Below, piece by piece: positions 1-23,086 of a DNA stretch of 64,000 bases. The number at the start of each line of letters is the position of its first letter. Positions within the stretch are counted from its first letter, which is position 1. The DNA comes from Candidatus Nomurabacteria bacterium (GTDB taxonomy: Bacteria > Patescibacteriota > Dojkabacteria > SC72 > JAHDCA01), in assembly GCA_020632395.1 (NCBI GenBank), contig JACKFQ010000002.1:83662-147661 (forward strand), read 5' to 3'. A program made the translations under genes and the position numbers. The notes under the pieces were generated by a model. That model was not told the origin of the DNA. It saw nothing but the letters and a program-made list of their open reading frames with translations, and did not search any database.

Positions 1-122
1 CGTGGACCCCAATGATGATCGGTCGAACGCTCCGTATCAAATCCAAGTACCTCCGAGCCAGAACCTAGCAATCCAGCAGAGTATTTGAGTCCATGAAATT
101 CTGTTTCGATGAGAGTTTTCAC
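1..122 (-). CDS. N-terminal fragment of a protein running off the left edge; possible Pol-beta-superfamily nucleotidyltransferase (GS-x7-DTE motif)
   Basis: Minus-strand frame reads VKTLIETEFHGLKYSAGLLGSGSEVLGFDTERSTDHHWGP... from a GTG at 122 to beyond position 1. By eye this stretch is about 48% GC, versus under 30% for the adjacent array. Not in the ORF track because it is partial. Confidence 0.3.
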   Translation of the reverse strand, partial: MKTLIETEFHGLKYSAGLLGSGSEVLGFDTERSTDHHWGP

Positions 123-203
123 GACCTCTTTGTAAAATTGTTCACACAGTTGTTATCTTGGAATAAACTTTGTCAAATTTGAAGTATTTAGTTTTTTACT
201 AAC

Positions 204-641
204 CTATTCGAACTTTTTGTAGAACGTTTTTTGTAGATAGCAGGTAATTGCCATTCGACTTGCATCAAAATGAGGTGTCGGGAGATTTTTTGGATCTACC
301 CATAGCCACTCATCGCATTTTTCTGGTTCCATTATTTTCAGCTCACCGGAAAAGTCCTGGGCAAGTAAGGCGATCGAAACGTAGTGTAACCCTTCTTTGT
401 TGTAAGTTTCTAAGTTGTTGGTTACGGCTACCACTCGTGGATTTTTAATGTCCAAGTCGGTTTCTTCTTTAATTTCTCTAATCGCGCCATCTTCAAATGT
501 TTCGCCTGGCTCTAGATGCCCGCCTGGAATGGAATAGTATGGAGCATGGCTATTTTTTCTTTTGCCAATAAGGACTTTTCCGTCGTGATTTACAAGAATC
601 ACGCCTAATCCAACTCTTGGTATGTTTTTTTGTTTCGTCAT
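204..641 (-). CDS. NUDIX hydrolase
   Basis: Nudix box GGHLEPGETFEDGAIREIKEETDL (GX5EX7REUXEEXGU) in the 145 aa ORF. Confidence 0.85.
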   Translation of the reverse strand: MTKQKNIPRVGLGVILVNHDGKVLIGKRKNSHAPYYSIPGGHLEPGETFEDGAIREIKEETDLDIKNPRVVAVTNNLETYNKEGLHYVSIALLAQDFSGELKIMEPEKCDEWLWVDPKNLPTPHFDASRMAITCYLQKTFYKKFE

Positions 642-670
642 ATTTTAGAAAGGTTAGTTTAAAAATCTCG

Positions 671-701
671 CATAACGTTTCCCGATGAAGCGAAGTTTTG
701 C
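671..701. repeat. Cassette-junction conserved block 1, copy A (cATAACGTTtcccgATgaagCGAAGTTTTGC)
   Basis: One of seven related 30-35 bp elements, one in each intergenic region of the 0.2-5.6 kb array. They share the palindromic core ATAACGTTA followed by ATAT and GAAGTTTTGC. Confidence 0.7.
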
Positions 702-764
702 AAATTCCTTATGTAAATTAATATTTATTGGCAAAATTTGGACGGAGAAAACAATAAATTAATT

Positions 765-1142
765 TTAGCTCCGTAACTTTACTATAGTGTCCTTGAGTTT
801 CTTCATCAAATCGTCTTTATCGGTATATTCTATAAATTTATCAGTCACGATTTTTAGTGAGCTAGATGTTCTTTGTCCTGAATGATAAATACAAATAATT
901 GGACACTTTGACAAATCAGCCCACCCAAGCTCGATTCCCAGGCCTGTCGATGGATAAGAAACCTCCGCGATCATTAAGTCGCATGTCTTTATTATATCTC
1001 GCGTTACAAAATCACTAGCGTCTTCATAGGCTTCGTGCGGCAAGATAATTTCATGCTCCGTGTTCAATAAGCTTGAACGAATTGGTTCATATAGCTCTTT
1101 TTCAAAATCGTAATCGGTAGAGTGTCCAATATATATTTTCAT
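765..1142 (-). CDS. Nucleoside 2-deoxyribosyltransferase-like protein (flavodoxin-like fold)
   Basis: Motif STGLGIELGWA resembles the NDT catalytic-Glu motif (G-T-x-x-E-x-G-x-A). Size is 125 aa. Confidence 0.55.
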   Translation of the reverse strand: MKIYIGHSTDYDFEKELYEPIRSSLLNTEHEIILPHEAYEDASDFVTRDIIKTCDLMIAEVSYPSTGLGIELGWADLSKCPIICIYHSGQRTSSSLKIVTDKFIEYTDKDDLMKKLKDTIVKLRS

Positions 1143-1228
1143 AGAAGAGGGGATAAGATTAATTTATTGTTTTATGTAGTCGCATACACATTGTTAGATG
1201 ATGTGACATAATGGATATGGAGTCATTT

Positions 1229-1260
1229 CATATAACGTTAGCGTGTATGCAAAGTATGCC
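1229..1260. repeat. Cassette-junction block 1, copy B (catATAACGTTAGCGTGTATGCaaagtatgcc)
   Basis: Shares the ATATAACGTTAG core. Its stem portion GTGTATGC has an inverted partner GCATACAC at 1182-1189, followed by attGTTAGAT. Confidence 0.65.
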
Positions 1261-1401
1261 TAAGAACGGAACTGATATTATCTTCTCAAGATTTAAGCGA
1301 ATAGGCAAATTGGGGCGAGCCATTTTTAGAAATCAGTTGCACTGGACACGACAAAATGGCTCACAGCATAGCTGCTGTTGTGTGATGTAAAAAGAAAAGC
1401 G

Positions 1402-1794
1402 CTATATGCTCTTCATCTGAATCATTTTTGCCATTGCTATATATAAAACAAGACCTACCGAATAAATGATAATATAGGGGGCAATGGCAATCCAACGGTT
1501 AATGTAAAACAGATCAACATTTTGAAATGATCTTTCTATTGTCGAACCTACTACAAAAAAACTAAGAGCAACTAATGTATTGAGTAGAATTGTAAAATAC
1601 TGCCTACTGTCATCAACATGTATTAACTTTGTAATGAAGTAAGCTATTACGATATAAGCAATGGCAAAAATGCTCGTAATTGGCAATTGCAAAATCCATC
1701 TGCCATCTGAAGGAACATTTAATAACACATAAATTGTGTTTGCCACAAGAATTATCAAGAAACTAATGATAACTGAATTTGCAATTGTTTTCAT
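1402..1794 (-). CDS. Small integral membrane protein (about 4 TM helices), function unknown
   Basis: Hydrophobic segments fill most of the 130 aa ORF. Confidence 0.5.
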   Translation of the reverse strand: MKTIANSVIISFLIILVANTIYVLLNVPSDGRWILQLPITSIFAIAYIVIAYFITKLIHVDDSRQYFTILLNTLVALSFFVVGSTIERSFQNVDLFYINRWIAIAPYIIIYSVGLVLYIAMAKMIQMKSI

Positions 1795-1846
1795 ATGGGT
1801 TTGTTATTAAATAGTAGTAGCATTTTACCATTTCGTTTTGTTTCGT

Positions 1847-1874
1847 ACAACGTTATGGATATGCGGAGTTTTTC
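1847..1874. repeat. Cassette-junction block 1, copy C (acAACGTTATGGATATgCGgAGTTTTTC)
   Basis: Core AACGTTAT plus GGATAT and AGTTTTTC, matching the other junction copies. Confidence 0.6.
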
Positions 1875-1929
1875 TGGAACGTACTGGAGTGAAAGCGCTA
1901 GTGTACCCTGGAGTTTGTCCTTCAACCCG

Positions 1930-2448
1930 TTACTTCTCATCAAGATAAGAATTAATTGCTTCATCAATAATCGTAATATCTTTGATTTTTTTACTTTCAG
2001 GATTTTTACTAAATTCTTTAATCCATTCAATACAGTCATCAATATTTTCAACAACTAAATCAGAAAAGGTCAATAGAAAAGGATGAATCCAATCATCGAT
2101 TTTTGTACCATCAAAAACAATATTTGATCTTCTATGATGTGTATCTTTTGGAATTATTGAAATTACAGGTCTTTTGAAATATTTTGCAATTACCATTTCT
2201 TGAGCAGTTCCAGCTCCAAGTTTCTTCTTAGAATCAACGATGATAATATCTGCTGTTTTTACGAGATTAGAATCATGACCAACTAATTGCAAAGGTTTAG
2301 TTTCATCTTTCCATGCATCACCATCTGTAATTTCAACATTGGGAATTTTTGAAAGTTTTTCTTTGTATTCAACTTTCCAATCTTTCCAATTTTCTCTAAC
2401 ATCATCTCCTTTTGGTATTGAACCTAATAAAAAATTTTTAAGCGTCAT
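1930..2448 (-). CDS. Nucleoside 2-deoxyribosyltransferase-like protein, second paralog
   Basis: Motif KLGAGTAQEMVIAKY resembles the NDT active-site region. Size is 172 aa. The ORF-track entry 1791..2054 is an overlapping shadow ORF. Confidence 0.5.
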   Translation of the reverse strand: MTLKNFLLGSIPKGDDVRENWKDWKVEYKEKLSKIPNVEITDGDAWKDETKPLQLVGHDSNLVKTADIIIVDSKKKLGAGTAQEMVIAKYFKRPVISIIPKDTHHRRSNIVFDGTKIDDWIHPFLLTFSDLVVENIDDCIEWIKEFSKNPESKKIKDITIIDEAINSYLDEK

Positions 2449-2510
2449 ATATTTTGTGAAAATCCTTTATAAATTAAATCTTATTCTTCTAATGGTTGTA
2501 GGGTAAATTT

Positions 2511-2543
2511 CATTTAACGTTCCTGCGTATGCGATGTTTTTGC
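2511..2543. repeat. Cassette-junction block 1, copy D (catTTAACGTTcctgcgTATgCGatgTTTTTGC)
   Basis: Degenerate copy of the junction core. Confidence 0.55.
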
Positions 2544-2550
2544 GACCAAC

Positions 2551-2645
2551 GGGAGCAAAAATATGGGTGAAGCCCGAGCCGAGGGCTGAACCGTATATCC
2601 CTTGTTATACGCCCCGACGACAGAAAGGAGGAGAGCGCAGCGTGG
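2551..2645. repeat. Cassette-junction blocks 2-3, copy D (about 95 bp)
   Basis: About 90% identical by eye to 4401-4494. Contains the CGTATAtcccttgtTATACG hairpin and GGAGGAGAGCGCAGCGTGG. Confidence 0.75.
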
Positions 2646-2774
2646 CTTGAGTTCAAAAAATATTTTTCGTTCTGATTCATCAGAGAGGCTTTCGGTTATT
2701 TCTTATAAATTTGATTTTTTCGTTTTTCTTTTTCCAAGAGGGGTTAGGGATGAATTGGAAAAAATAAAAACTCC

Positions 2775-3440
2775 TTATTCTTTTTCATTAATAACAAACC
2801 ATTCTCCTTCACTAATCACTTCAATTTTGTTGTCAATAATCTTTAATGCAGAATCATCATCAAGTGCATAAATTGTTTTGCTTATTTCTTGACCAACTTT
2901 TTCTATATTTTCTCTTCTCATTTTTTTAAACCATTCAGAATTCAAATGTGGCAAGAAATAAAAATCTACAAAGTTTAAACCTTTTAATTCTTCAGTTTCA
3001 AGCATATCTTCTTCATAAATCACTTGGGATAATTTCAATGCTAAATCAGGATTAGTAACCATACTTCCAGCAGAAACACCAACATAAACTTTATCTTTAA
3101 ATAAATCAGACAACATTTCAGATAAACCTGATTTATTTAGCCATCTCATTAGATGATAAGTATTTCCTCCTTCAAAAAACAAAACATCAGCTCTTTCTAA
3201 ACTCGGTTTCCATATTTTTTCATCAACAGCTGAAATATCAGTAATTTCAATTGATTTGAAATTTTGTTTTTTCAAATTCACTAAATCAGTAATTAGCCAA
3301 TCTTTATCGCCCGATTCAACATTGCTTGCAGTAGGAATAAAAACAACTGTTGTTTCTTCTGGTTTCTTTCCAGTTAATTCAAACAAAGCATTGGCAATTG
3401 AATTGTTTGTTAGTCCGCTTGATGTTAATAGTAGTTTCAT
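2775..3440 (-). CDS. Peptidase E / S51-family dipeptidase
   Basis: LLLTSSG ... FIPTAS ... FFEGGNTYHLMRWL ... VYVGVSAGS match S51 peptidase motifs. Size is 221 aa. Confidence 0.8.
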   Translation of the reverse strand: MKLLLTSSGLTNNSIANALFELTGKKPEETTVVFIPTASNVESGDKDWLITDLVNLKKQNFKSIEITDISAVDEKIWKPSLERADVLFFEGGNTYHLMRWLNKSGLSEMLSDLFKDKVYVGVSAGSMVTNPDLALKLSQVIYEEDMLETEELKGLNFVDFYFLPHLNSEWFKKMRRENIEKVGQEISKTIYALDDDSALKIIDNKIEVISEGEWFVINEKE

Positions 3441-3604
3441 AATAGTAGGAGTAAAGAATTAAAATTTATAAATCAATCGTTTTCGGAACGAAGTGGAGAA
3501 AACACATTATTATCCCCCTCTTTTATTTTAGAAAAAATCAAATTTATTCCCTTTTTAGAAAGCCTATTTTCATTATTCATCTTAGAAAAATATTTTTTGA
3601 ATTT

Positions 3605-3638
3605 CACATAACGTATCCGAATATGAGAAGTTTTTTGC
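3605..3638. repeat. Cassette-junction block 1, copy E (cacATAACGTATCCGaATATgaGAAGTTTTTTGC)
   Basis: Junction core. A possible partner arm CGGATAatcagtGTTATAC lies at 3785-3803, just before the stop codon of the upstream gene. Confidence 0.6.
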
Positions 3639-3813
3639 CGGATTTCCCAGTATTTATGTACAGTTTAGCACATTCGTTCGACATTTGAATATGCTTTAAT
3701 TGATCGCCATTCGTAGGCAAAAAATTTGGATGGAATGAAAAAGACAAGTCCTTAAATTATTCAAAAGTGTCTTTTTCATGGAACCGGATAATCAGTGTTA
3801 TACGAGAGTTGAA

Positions 3814-4341
3814 TTAAGCGGCTCCTAGCAGTTTCAACATTTTCTCAGACCAATCAGTATTGCCCTTTGTTATTTCCTCCTTGAAAAATTTTATCATCAG
3901 CTGTTTTGGCTCATCCGATATTGCACAGTGCTTAATTTCTGGCCAAAATTCACGATACCATAATCCGATATTATCATGTTTTAAGTCGCAAGCACCGCCA
4001 TTTGGATCAGGTTCAATAAACAAAATCCTGTCTACGTGATTTGTAACAGAAGCTCCCAAGCATTGAATACAAGGTTCAAGCGTACTGTATAGAGAGACAA
4101 TTTTTGAATTATCCTTACGAACTTCCGCCAGCTCTTTGCCGTACTTAATTATTAGAGAATTTTCGGCATGATTCACAAAGGATTTTTGTTTATTGATTTC
4201 GTTGCCAGCGACGCCAAGCGTTTTATTATTGATAGCCAAAACAGCCCCCACAGGATAGTTCCCAAGCTTGAAAGTTTCTCTAGCAATACTGATGGCCGAC
4301 TCCAAGCATTGTTTATCGAATTGTGTTATTTCTTGCACCAT
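3814..4341 (-). CDS. CMP/dCMP-type (cytidine/deoxycytidylate family) zinc deaminase
   Basis: HAE (VNHAENSL) and PCxxC (LEPCIQCLG) zinc-binding motifs. Size is 175 aa. Confidence 0.75.
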   Translation of the reverse strand: MVQEITQFDKQCLESAISIARETFKLGNYPVGAVLAINNKTLGVAGNEINKQKSFVNHAENSLIIKYGKELAEVRKDNSKIVSLYSTLEPCIQCLGASVTNHVDRILFIEPDPNGGACDLKHDNIGLWYREFWPEIKHCAISDEPKQLMIKFFKEEITKGNTDWSEKMLKLLGAA

Positions 4342-4360
4342 ACAGAGCTTAATTCAATTT

Positions 4361-4391
4361 CATATAACGTTAGGGATATACGAAGTTTTGC
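4361..4391. repeat. Cassette-junction block 1, copy F (catATAACGTTAGGGATATACGAAGTTTTGC), the best-preserved copy
   Basis: ATATAAC-GTTA-GGGATATACG is the reverse complement of CGTATATCCC-TT-GTTATAC at 4442-4460, with a 2-nt versus 4-nt bulge. Confidence 0.75.
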
Positions 4392-4400
4392 GGAGTGAAA

Positions 4401-4494
4401 CGGAGCAAAATTTGGGTGAGGGGCGAGCCGAGCACCGAACCGTATATCCCTTGTTATACGCCCCGACGACCAAAGGGAGGAGAGCGCAGCGTGG
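4401..4494. repeat. Cassette-junction blocks 2-3, copy F
   Basis: Near-identical to 2551-2645. Contains the right arm of the attC-like inverted repeat. Confidence 0.75.
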
Positions 4495-4516
4495 TTCGTG
4501 GCGATAGCCGAGAAAG

Positions 4517-4553
4517 TCAGAAGTCGGCTTTTTTCTTTTTTATGAGCGCACAC
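4517..4553. repeat. Left arm of an imperfect inverted repeat flanking the methyltransferase gene
   Basis: TCAGAAGTCGGCTTTT ... TGAGCGCACAC are the reverse complements of AAAAGCCGACTTCTGA and GTGTGCGCTCA at 5425-5464. This arm abuts the stop codon. Confidence 0.7.
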
Positions 4554-5381
4554 CTATTTTTTCTTAACAATTATCATCATATGTCCACTTAAATCAACAA
4601 TTATTGGATCGGTGCAAATTTTGTTATGAATGGCTAACCAATTTTTCCATGCTTTTGGATATTTCTTTGCAAATTTATTTGTCGCTTCAGGATTTACATT
4701 TAAGCCTTCAAGACCCACTTTCTCAAGAATTTGCACATCTTTTTTGGTAAAAATGGACTCAAGCTCTGATGAGGTAAAATAATGACAATAGCCATCTCCT
4801 CTCCATTTATAATCTTCACCATCAGATACCAGTCCCTCGAAATGCTTTTTGTAAACTACTTCTTGTGGCCAACCAAGAGGAGTGGCTAGGAGTACCCCAT
4901 ACTTGCTCATTACTGAAACAAAAATTAAAGCACCCTTTTTTGCGACTCTAATTAATTCGTCAATTGCTTTTAGTCTTTCGGATTCTGGGCTGACATGAGA
5001 GAGTGGTCCGCCCAAGCACAATACTACATCAAAAGAATTATTTTCAAATTCAGATAAGTCTGTAATAGACCCCTCTACAATATCTTTAATTTTTGTTTGT
5101 ACCTTTGCTTTTTTAATTTGTTCCCTAGCAAGTTCTAGGTGTTCTGTGACCAAATCCAGAAGAACAACATCATATCCCATTTTTGCCAATTCAATTGAGT
5201 ATCTTCCGGGACCACCACCTGCGTCAAGAATTACTCCAGATTTTGGAAGATATTTTTTTAGGAATTTTATTGATGTGTCAAATTCTATTTTATGAAAGGG
5301 GTCTTGTGCTAATCTATTCCATTCATAAAGAGCATCTTTTTTGTAATTCTTTTTGGTTAGTTTTGTAGTCTTGTTTGCCAT
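4554..5381 (-). CDS. Class I SAM-dependent methyltransferase
   Basis: Motif I VILDAGGGPGRYSIELAK with the acidic residue at VVLLDL. Size is 275 aa. Confidence 0.8.
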   Translation of the reverse strand: MANKTTKLTKKNYKKDALYEWNRLAQDPFHKIEFDTSIKFLKKYLPKSGVILDAGGGPGRYSIELAKMGYDVVLLDLVTEHLELAREQIKKAKVQTKIKDIVEGSITDLSEFENNSFDVVLCLGGPLSHVSPESERLKAIDELIRVAKKGALIFVSVMSKYGVLLATPLGWPQEVVYKKHFEGLVSDGEDYKWRGDGYCHYFTSSELESIFTKKDVQILEKVGLEGLNVNPEATNKFAKKYPKAWKNWLAIHNKICTDPIIVDLSGHMMIIVKKK

Positions 5382-5424
5382 AATAATATTGTAAAGTATA
5401 AATGATTTATAATTGTTGTGTTAA

Positions 5425-5464
5425 GTGTGCGCTCATTCCTTCTTAATTAAAAGCCGACTTCTGA
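5425..5464. repeat. Right arm of the inverted repeat flanking the methyltransferase gene
   Basis: GTGTGCGCTCA ... AAAAGCCGACTTCTGA. A 16-nt and an 11-nt perfect reverse-complement match to 4517-4553, with different spacers. Confidence 0.7.
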
Positions 5465-5466
5465 TT

Positions 5467-5500
5467 GCGTATAACTCGTTACTATACGAAGTGTTTTCGC
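5467..5500. repeat. Cassette-junction block 1, copy G (attI-equivalent position next to the recombinase)
   Basis: gcGTATAACtcGTTActATACGAAGTgTTTTcGC lies between the first array gene and the divergent tyrosine recombinase gene. Confidence 0.6.
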
Positions 5501-5590: not shown

Positions 5591-6403
5591 ATGAAAAAAG
5601 AAATTACAGCAACTGTACGAGAATTAAAAATTCGCAATTACAGTTCTAAAACAATAAAAAGCTACACTAGTGGAATTCAAAAATACTTTCGGTTCAAGAA
5701 AAATAATTTCCAACAGCTAGATATCCACAATATACAAAACTTTTTACTCTCCTGTTCAGATAAAGGACTGTCTGCTAAGACAAGAGATCTATATTTGAAT
5801 TCAATTAAATTCTATTACCACAACGTCATTAAAACTTCAAAAAAGGTAGACATCAAATCTGCAAAACAAAATAAAAGTCTCCCTGTTATATTGAATCGCA
5901 AGGAAATCACAAAGTTGAGTGAAGTCATAAATAACCCCAAACACAAATTAATCATCTTGCTAGCATATGGAGCAGGATTAAGAGTTAGCGAAGTCGTCAA
6001 CTTAAAGGTCAAGGACGTAGATATTGATAATCTCACACTCCATATTAAGAAAGCCAAGGGGAAAAAGGATAGAATTACTATTATCCCAGAAAAAATTAAG
6101 GATGATCTGAAATTGATAATTAATTCAAGAGATCAAAACGAATATGTTTTTACAAGTGAACGAGGAGGAAATCTTACAACTCGTACTGCACAAAAGATTT
6201 TTACTAATGCTCTGAAAAAAGCAGGAATTAAGAAGGAGACGACATTTCATTCACTACGCCATAGCTTTGCAACTCACTTACTAGAAAACGGAGTTGATAT
6301 CAGATATGTTCAAGAATTACTTGGTCATCAAAATATTAGAACCACACAAAGATATACTCAAGTTACAAATCCGAAACTAAAAAACATTAAAAGTCCCCTC
6401 TGA
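5591..6403 (+). CDS. Tyrosine site-specific recombinase (XerC/XerD/phage-integrase family, 270 aa)
   Basis: Box I LRVSEV, box II HSLRHSFAT, catalytic Tyr in LGHQNIRTTQRYTQV. About 91 residues separate the box I Arg from the box II His, matching the Xer spacing, so no IntI-type insertion. Confidence 0.9.
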   Translation: MKKEITATVRELKIRNYSSKTIKSYTSGIQKYFRFKKNNFQQLDIHNIQNFLLSCSDKGLSAKTRDLYLNSIKFYYHNVIKTSKKVDIKSAKQNKSLPVILNRKEITKLSEVINNPKHKLIILLAYGAGLRVSEVVNLKVKDVDIDNLTLHIKKAKGKKDRITIIPEKIKDDLKLIINSRDQNEYVFTSERGGNLTTRTAQKIFTNALKKAGIKKETTFHSLRHSFATHLLENGVDIRYVQELLGHQNIRTTQRYTQVTNPKLKNIKSPL

Positions 6404-6561
6404 AAAGAAACATTTTCTAAGACTCGAACCCAATTATTAGAGTTATATAGGCATTCTTGCTTATGGAGTGATATTTACCTTACTTTGCGTCATTTCTACG
6501 AACTGCAAGATTAGTCCGCTGTATAAGGCTTTTAAAATGCTGAAGAAAAAGCTGACCTAAC

Positions 6562-6711
6562 TGGTCGGGGAGACAGGACCATCTCGGCAAACATGCCTCG
6601 ATGTATGATGCAGAATAATTCTACTGCATCATAGGTCCCTGCAGTAGGTTCAAGTCCAAATACACCATCCATACAGAGTAAACGACCACCTAACGGTGGT
6701 CATTTACTCTG
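6562..6711. repeat. 150 bp module at the 3' end of tRNA-Pro(CGG); duplicated at 22862-23012
   Basis: Nearly identical to the copy at 22862-23012. Begins with GTCGGGGAGACAGGAC, a 16-nt direct repeat of the tRNA 3' end. Contains the hairpins TGATGCAG/CTGCATCA and GACCACC-TAAC-GGTGGTC. Confidence 0.8.
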
Positions 6712-6785
6712 TCGGGGAGACAGGACTTGAACCTGCGACCTCTGCAACCCGAATGCAGCGTTCTAGCCATCTGAACTACTCCCCG
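6712..6785 (-). tRNA. tRNA-Pro, anticodon CGG
   Basis: Manual cloverleaf: acceptor CGGGGAG/CTCCCCG, D-stem GTTC/GAAC, anticodon arm CTGCA-TTCGGGT-TGCAG, T-arm GCAGG-TTCAAGT-CCTGT, discriminator A. Length 74 nt with no encoded CCA. Confidence 0.85.
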
Positions 6786-6875
6786 AGTACAATATTTCTC
6801 TTAGGTATATCTGGCAAATGAGCCTTATAATAACAACTTTACGAACGTAGTACTATATACGAATTCCACTATCCA

Positions 6876-22861: not shown

Positions 22862-23012
22862 CTGGTCGGGGAGACAGGACCATCTCGGCAAATATGCCTC
22901 GATGTATGATGCAGAATAATTCTACTGCATCATAGGTCCCTGCAGCAGGTTCAAGTCCAAATACACCATCCATACAAAGTAAACGACCACCTAACGGTGG
23001 TCATTTACTCTG
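22862..23012. repeat. 150 bp module at the 3' end of tRNA-Pro(GGG); second copy
   Basis: Near-identical to 6562-6711, including the 16-nt direct repeat of the tRNA 3' end and both hairpins. Confidence 0.8.
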
Positions 23013-23086
23013 TCGGGGAGACAGGACTTGAACCTGCGACCTCTTGCACCCCATGCAAGCGCTCTAGCCATCTGAACTACTCCCCG
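23013..23086 (-). tRNA. tRNA-Pro, anticodon GGG
   Basis: Identical to the 6712-6785 tRNA except in the anticodon arm: CTTGC-ATGGGGT-GCAAG here versus CTGCA-TTCGGGT-TGCAG there, and one D-stem base. Confidence 0.85.

What the first reader, a model, noticed from the sequence alone, without database searches (positions are those of the whole stretch)
5591..6800. Recombinase gene sits beside the 3' end of tRNA-Pro, an integrative-island boundary, with an internal 16-nt repeat of the tRNA end
The tyrosine recombinase gene ends at 6403. On the + strand the tRNA-Pro(CGG) 3' end at 6712 faces it, 310 bp away. The 3'-terminal 16 nt of the tRNA (GTCGGGGAGACAGGAC) recur as a direct repeat at 6563-6578. 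This is the usual signature of an element integrated into a tRNA gene, with attL/attR and the integrase just inside. Together with the GC drop, it suggests the array plus recombinase is an integrated island whose other end lies near or beyond the left edge of the window. A short tRNA T-arm-like scrap (AGACTCGAACCC, about 6418-6432) directly after the recombinase stop may be another att relic.
Basis: partly seen in the sequence, partly recalled or inferred. Interest (0 to 1): 0.55.

Follow-up and report, generated by a model that had tools for sequence, protein, structure and literature searches.

The report
Composite insertion hot-spot at tRNA-Pro
The repeat of the tRNA-Pro end is real, but it brackets a separate 147-bp mini-insertion found at both proline tRNA genes; the recombinase next to it runs an integron-like gene-cassette array sitting inside the decayed remains of a different, serine-recombinase island.

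Summary
Observation confirmed. tRNA-Pro(CGG) lies at 6712-6785 on the minus strand. Its 3' end faces the 270-aa tyrosine recombinase (5591-6403). The GC drop is real (0.348 against 0.400).

Interpretation partly supported.
1. The 16-nt pair bounds a 147-bp coding-free insertion. It recurs almost identically at tRNA-Pro(GGG) (22865-23027), where no recombinase lies beside it. Sister strains lack it at either tRNA.
2. The distal copy is the displaced native CCA-bearing tRNA end. It abuts a relic of a large serine recombinase gene (6498-6560). In relatives, this family's reading frame ends inside tRNA genes.
3. The tyrosine recombinase is XerA/IntI-like and lacks the integron-integrase extra domain. 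It heads an integron-like array of at least seven cassettes. The same geometry holds across the recombinase's relatives in Patescibacteria.
4. No second tRNA-end copy lies in the 9.8 kb left of the window. Only a degenerate island end follows the last cassette.
5. In 27 of 75 relatives the recombinase gene sits next to a convergent tRNA or tmRNA 3' end. Two relatives have direct repeats flanking recombinase plus cassettes.

So this is a real tRNA-anchored island boundary, but a composite one. Which enzyme built it is unresolved.

The parts
6712..6785 (-). tRNA-Pro(CGG), intact, with no encoded CCA (the 3' end is followed by CAGAG)
   Evidence: ARAGORN. Rfam tRNA at 63.8 bits, with alignment.
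6711..6726 (-). Proximal copy (c1) of the 16-nt repeat, forming the 3' end of the working tRNA
6580..6710 (.). Body of the 147-bp mini-insertion (131 nt, no ORF). It holds an 18-bp hairpin at 6673-6712 abutting the tRNA end, a 10-bp hairpin (TATGATGCAG/CTGCATCATA), and an inverted copy of the T-arm 5' half (GCAGtaGGTTCAAGTCC, 6642-6658).
   Evidence: I10. Folds with z = -9.2 and -6.6. About 98% identical (3 SNPs) to 22881-23011. Absent at this tRNA in L017 and at tRNA-Pro(GGG) in L111.
6561..6579 (-). Distal copy (c2). In tRNA sense it reads GTCCTGTCTCCCCGACCAG, the displaced native tRNA 3' end that still encodes CCA.
   Evidence: Sites without the mini-insertion read ...CCCCGACCA directly (L017; L111).
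6498..6560 (+). Relic of the 3' end of a large serine recombinase gene (STNCKISPLYKAFKMLKKKLT*), the attL-side remnant of a serine-recombinase island
   Evidence: tblastn against the L017 ORF gives 13 aa at 62% identity, E = 0.01. ISPLYKAFK matches P0121 at 9 of 9 positions. The block sits at the same distance from the tRNA CCA in L017, L128 and L139, and differences fall at third codon positions.
6404..6497 (.). Arm between the recombinase stop and the serine-recombinase relic, function unknown.
   Evidence: Conserved with L021 over the arm and the following relic, roughly 70-80% identical by eye; homology ends at the position of c2. No tRNA-like signal.
5591..6403 (+). XerA/IntI-like tyrosine recombinase (270 aa) with R, HxxR, H and Y motifs present and no IntI-specific extra domain
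   Evidence: Pfam Phage_integrase plus SAM-like N-terminal domain. NF040815 at 232.8 bits, above its 220 cut-off; TIGR02249 at 212.8, below 265. PDB matches 2A3V (two pieces, about 43 aa missing) and 4A8E (colinear).
5464..5500 (-). attI-like site (GCGAAAACACTTCGTATAGTAACGAGTTATACGC), about 115 nt upstream of the recombinase start
1..5475 (-). Seven co-oriented cassettes (NUDIX, deoxyribosyltransferase-like, membrane protein, unknown, S51 peptidase, deaminase, methyltransferase). Each ends in a conserved motif of about 37 nt, GCAAAAACTTCGCATAT..AACGTTATRTGAAAT. The G of GTT falls at 676, 1236, 1851, 2518, 3612 and 4368. The array continues left of the window.
   Evidence: L001 shows three or four more cassettes.
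22865..23086 (-). Second copy of the module: distal 16-mer at 22865-22880, 131-nt body, then tRNA-Pro(GGG) at 23013-23086. No recombinase lies beside it.
6844..6863 (-). Cassette-site look-alike TTCGTATATAGTACTACGTT, 58 nt upstream of the tRNA. Status uncertain.
   Evidence: It is one of only two window matches to TTCGYATA-N4-9-ACGTT, but the pattern was written after seeing both sites. The site profile does not detect it. It is also present in L017.

Best explanation
The tRNA-Pro 3' end in this Patescibacteria (CPR) genome is an attachment hot-spot carrying three nested layers of foreign DNA.

Layer 1 is a 147-bp non-coding mini-element. It was inserted at the T-loop position of the tRNA and duplicated 16 nt. 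It gives the tRNA a new 3' end without CCA, followed by an 18-bp hairpin. It pushes the native CCA-bearing end 147 nt downstream. The same element sits in the second tRNA-Pro gene. It is present or absent between near-identical strains, so it is either moved by an enzyme encoded elsewhere or copied between the two tRNA genes by gene conversion.

Layer 2 starts at the displaced native end, which is the left junction of a decayed island of a serine-recombinase family. In this family the gene's last codons are read antisense across the tRNA 3' end. Only about 20 codons survive here.

Layer 3 is the island interior, an integron-like platform. A XerA/IntI-like tyrosine recombinase sits divergent from an attI-like site and at least ten co-oriented cassettes, each ending in a conserved site of about 37 nt. 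The recombinase most likely inserts and excises cassettes at those sites.

Shown: the anatomy, the polymorphisms and the family-wide geometry. Inferred: which enzyme made each junction, and that the tyrosine recombinase shuffles cassettes.
For: Mini-element:
- Four exact copies of the 16-mer form two pairs with identical 147-nt spacing.
- 6561-6785 and 22862-23086 differ by 3 SNPs outside the anticodon arm, and homology starts 3 nt beyond the distal copy.
- It is absent at Pro(CGG) in L017 and at Pro(GGG) in L111. Both then read CCCCGACCA.
- It is present at Pro(CGG) on the same MAG contig as L111 (L011).
- Similar spacers of 116-180 nt with 14-19-nt repeats occur in L051, L091 and L027.

Serine-recombinase layer:
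- The L017 ORF (Zn_ribbon_recom) ends ...ISPLYQALRDISENHVLYGRGDRT* inside the tRNA.
- P0121 (371 aa, Recombinase plus Zn ribbon) ends inside tRNA-Pro(GGG), and P0122 ends inside tRNA-His.
- Relics match the L017 ORF in L128 (37 aa, E = 1e-12), L021 (27 aa, E = 5e-7) and the window (13 aa, E = 0.01; ISPLYKAFK 9 of 9).
- Recombinase-less islands at Pro(GGG) in L111 and L112, and at a tRNA-Pro(TGG) in L128, share conserved ends. L111 and L112 are flanked by CCCGACCA(G); the L128 right junction keeps only CCCCGA.
- The 15-mer ACTTATACTCAAACT from that shared right end lies 22 nt after the last cassette (L001 4819-4833).

Platform:
- Conserved sites at all seven cassette ends plus an attI-like site.
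- In relatives, 83 of 84 site-profile hits fall upstream of the recombinase on the opposite strand, which is 18.6% of the search space.
- Recombinase family assignment.
- Low GC.
Against: - The window's own match to the serine recombinase is short (13 aa). It relies on position and on the longer L021 and L128 matches.
- The far end of the island is degenerate and has no core repeat, so island limits are inferred rather than demonstrated.
- The strong family-wide adjacency of this tyrosine recombinase to tRNA 3' ends, with gaps of 0-9 nt in L048, L032 and L091, suggests it may itself target tRNAs.
- Only one cassette site folds like an attC, so the integron analogy is organisational only.
- No excision product, transcript or activity data exist.
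- Five Logan contigs break 6 nt after the recombinase stop for no visible reason.
Confidence: 0.6

Rival explanations
1. The XerA-like tyrosine recombinase is the integrase of a self-integrating element (recombinase plus array) that targets tRNA 3' ends. The mini-element is a small relative that joined in tandem (accretion). The far att copy has eroded.
For: - 27 of 75 family loci have a convergent tRNA or tmRNA within 430 nt of the stop codon, P < 1e-29, involving at least eight tRNA identities plus tmRNA.
- The tRNA end starts 0-9 nt after the stop in L048, L032 and L091.
- L051 has a 64-nt direct repeat flanking five cassettes plus the recombinase, and a third copy in tRNA-Leu.
- L021 has a 35-nt direct repeat flanking the recombinase plus cassettes.
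- The T-loop position of the 16-nt repeat is typical for tyrosine integrases (from knowledge of the field).
Against: - Here the recombinase is separated from the tRNA core by a 155-nt arm that contains a serine-recombinase relic.
- No third copy of the tRNA end lies within 9.8 kb.
- The 16-nt pair also occurs at a tRNA with no recombinase beside it.
- Recombinase-less islands at the same tRNA family carry serine-recombinase-type ends.
Confidence: 0.25
2. The repeat is a fossil with no mobility of its own. An old insertion or duplication downstream of one tRNA-Pro gene was copied to the other by gene conversion between the two nearly identical tRNA genes. The recombinase's adjacency is incidental.
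For: The two tRNA-Pro genes are identical outside the anticodon arm, apart from one base, and both copies of the module end in the shared CCCCGACCAG. This gives homology on both sides for conversion. The module was found only in close relatives.
Against: Presence or absence differs at each tRNA between strains with otherwise identical flanks. Homology ends exactly at the repeat. Analogous repeat-bounded spacers sit beside other tRNAs in unrelated loci. Incidental adjacency is contradicted by the family statistics.
Confidence: 0.1
3. The 131-nt spacer is a functional RNA or terminator co-transcribed with tRNA-Pro. The distal repeat would serve alternative pairing with the acceptor 5' strand, regulating tRNA maturation.
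For: The predicted structure is strong (z = -9.2). The minimum-energy fold pairs the acceptor 5' strand with the distal copy and the T-arm with its antisense copy in the spacer. An 18-bp hairpin abuts the tRNA end.
Against: No Rfam family matches. Sister strains lack the spacer at either tRNA without replacement. The two copies have too few differences to test covariation. Repeats of a tRNA end will produce such alternative pairings by construction.
Confidence: 0.05

Closest known systems
Genomic islands and integrative elements inserted in tRNA gene 3' ends (P4-type islands; the T-loop and 3'-end sublocations described by Williams, 2002; from knowledge)
   Same: An intact tRNA sits at one border. 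The tRNA 3' end is duplicated as a direct repeat. A recombinase gene lies just inside, the GC content is lower, and the content varies between strains.
   Different: The repeat pair encloses only 147 bp and no gene. The far border has no repeat. The adjacent tyrosine recombinase is Xer/IntI-like rather than a P4/lambda-type integrase. The native junction carries a serine-recombinase relic.
CIMEs (cis-mobilisable elements) and tandem accretion at tRNA or other att sites, as described for streptococcal ICEs (from knowledge)
   Same: A short, gene-free segment is bounded by att-type repeats and lies next to a larger integrated element. The result is three-repeat structures (seen here in L051) and internal repeats.
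   Different: No parent element sharing the 131-nt body was found. The same mini-element occupies two different tRNA genes.
Integrons (IntI, attI, attC cassette arrays)
   Same: The recombinase is divergent from an adjacent insertion site. A co-oriented array of single-gene, mostly promoter-less cassettes follows, each ending in a recombination site with a GTT-containing core. The recombinase is as similar to VchIntIA as to XerA. Assemblies break at the attI-like site.
   Different: The recombinase lacks the IntI-specific additional domain and scores below the TIGR02249 cut-off. Sites are conserved in sequence, and only one of six folds as an attC-like imperfect palindrome. The platform shows a strong tRNA association, which integrons do not have.
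Xer/dif systems, Xer-exploiting mobile elements (IMEX) and pdif modules of Acinetobacter plasmids (from knowledge)
   Same: The recombinase has XerA-like architecture and passes the NF040815 cut-off. The cassette-end motif (..GCATAT..TTATRTGAAAT) resembles dif-type arms as I recall them. Gene modules are bounded by Xer-type sites.
   Different: Sites are all in one orientation and lie next to the recombinase gene. There is one recombinase rather than a XerC/XerD pair. The resemblance of the sites to dif was not tested with a tool.
Large serine recombinase integrative elements (phiC31, Bxb1, Ccr and TnpX types; from knowledge)
   Same: Relatives (L017, P0121, P0122) carry Recombinase plus Zn-ribbon domains at the extreme edge of the insert, next to the attachment site.
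   Different: The target is a tRNA 3' end, and the ORF's last seven or so codons are read from the antisense of the tRNA. The inserts are flanked by 8-9-nt repeats. In the window only a relic remains.

Membership tests
tRNA-anchored integrative island (tyrosine-integrase type) | An intact tRNA gene at one border, with the insert at its 3' side | tested here: met
   tRNA-Pro(CGG) at 6712-6785 scores 63.8 bits. Foreign DNA begins at its 3' end.
tRNA-anchored integrative island (tyrosine-integrase type) | A direct repeat of the tRNA 3' end at the far border of the island | tested here: not met
   No copy with up to 3 mismatches occurs in L001, which covers 9.8 kb left of the window, or elsewhere in the array. 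Only a degenerate island right end without the core lies 22 nt after the last cassette. The 6564 copy encloses only 131 nt.
tRNA-anchored integrative island (tyrosine-integrase type) | The integrase encoded just inside catalyses integration at that tRNA | not testable with these tools
   The position is right (308 nt away, convergent) and the family statistics are suggestive (27 of 75). However, a serine-recombinase relic intervenes.
tRNA-anchored integrative island (tyrosine-integrase type) | Deviant composition, and absence from related genomes | tested here: met
   GC is 0.348 against 0.400 +/- 0.009. L017 has the same tRNA and flank but no recombinase or array in the 1.4 kb of contig that follows the tRNA. 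No truly empty site was found.
Integron | IntI with the additional domain around patch III | tested here: not met
   Query residues 174-197 span IntI4 residues 178-244, so about 43 residues are missing. TIGR02249 scores 212.8 against a cut-off of 265.
Integron | attC sites: imperfect palindromes that fold as single strands, conserved mainly in structure | tested here: inconclusive
   The site at 4358-4466 folds as a long bulged stem, but not significantly better than shuffled sequence (z = -1.9). The other cassette sites do not fold this way. Sites share a sequence motif of about 37 nt instead.
Integron | Recombinase divergent from an attI-adjacent, co-oriented cassette array | tested here: met
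   The same geometry holds in 83 of 84 profile hits in relatives.
XerA-type recombinase (NF040815) | Score above the curated cut-off and colinearity with XerA | tested here: met
   232.8 bits, above 220. Colinear with 4A8E over residues 12-265, E = 1e-43.
XerA-type recombinase (NF040815) | Acts at a single chromosomal dif site for dimer resolution | not tested
   The context (cassette array, low GC, strain-variable content, 60% identity across phyla including an archaeal MAG) argues for a mobile-element role instead.
Large serine recombinase island at a tRNA | A serine-recombinase ORF whose 3' end overlaps the tRNA 3' end | tested here: inconclusive
   The feature is clear in relatives L017, L212 and L213. 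In the window only a 21-codon relic survives (13 aa aligned, E = 0.01; ISPLYKAFK 9 of 9), with no catalytic domain.
Miniature or cis-mobilisable integrative element | Bounded by att-type direct repeats, no recombinase gene, present or absent between strains | tested here: met
Miniature or cis-mobilisable integrative element | Excision or integration driven by an enzyme encoded elsewhere | not testable with these tools
   No circular junction or parent element was found. Public scans were negative.

The most novel reading that the evidence does not exclude
The recombinase belongs to a very large, undescribed class of integron-like platforms in Patescibacteria and some other uncultured phyla. 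More than 8000 close homologues were found. A XerA-like enzyme without the IntI extra domain would both shuffle cassettes at dif-like sequence-defined sites and insert the whole platform, together with small non-coding satellites such as the 147-bp element, into tRNA 3' ends. That would make it a self-integrating integron.
Probability: 0.3. Interest if true: 0.8.

Novelty: new variant of a known kind. Interest (0 to 1): 0.6.

Why it matters
An island next to a tRNA is routine. What the check uncovered is less so.

First, one tRNA 3' end is used by at least four kinds of insert in closely related strains of a reduced-genome CPR bacterium.

Second, a serine-recombinase family reads its own C-terminus off the antisense of the tRNA it targets.

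Third, a cassette platform organised like an integron is run by a Xer-like recombinase that lacks the domain thought to define integron integrases. That platform is strongly tied to tRNA 3' ends across many phyla.

If the recombinase does both jobs, it links the origin of integrons from Xer-type enzymes to tRNA-targeting elements. It would also give a route for gene flow in CPR bacteria, whose mobile elements are poorly known. My literature searches found no description of it.

Tried and rejected
- **T-arm scrap at 6420-6431.** The motif is no more frequent than chance and has no tRNA-like score. It is part of the arm conserved with L021. Rejected as an att relic.
- **Third copy of the tRNA end.** I searched the window and L001 with the 16-mer at up to 3 mismatches, and with blastn-short using the whole tRNA half, spacer and flank. 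Nothing was found.
- **Look-alike site upstream of the tRNA (6844-6863) against the array's far end.** The alignment is not better than shuffles, and the site profile does not detect it. A pattern written after the fact does single it out, so it is kept only as a note.
- **Known RNA in the spacer.** Only sub-threshold Rfam hits appear, caused by the tRNA and the hairpin.
- **JGI metagenome scans.** The 43-mer gave 0 hits. The 26-mer tRNA end gave 82 sites in many taxa, none with a second core copy, the mini-element or the recombinase. It did yield L128 and L139, which exposed the shared arm.
- **Viral contig scan for the mini-element.** No hit.
- **Mini-element as a reduced serine-recombinase island.** Its ends do not match the islands' conserved ends, and the peptide resemblance is weak (E = 0.19). 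Not adopted.
- **Serine-recombinase relics in the other 79 family loci.** Found only in L021. The tRNA adjacency of the family is therefore not generally explained by such relics.
- **Literature.** Seven searches on integrons or serine recombinases in CPR/Patescibacteria found nothing relevant. Archaeal integrons have the IntI extra domain.
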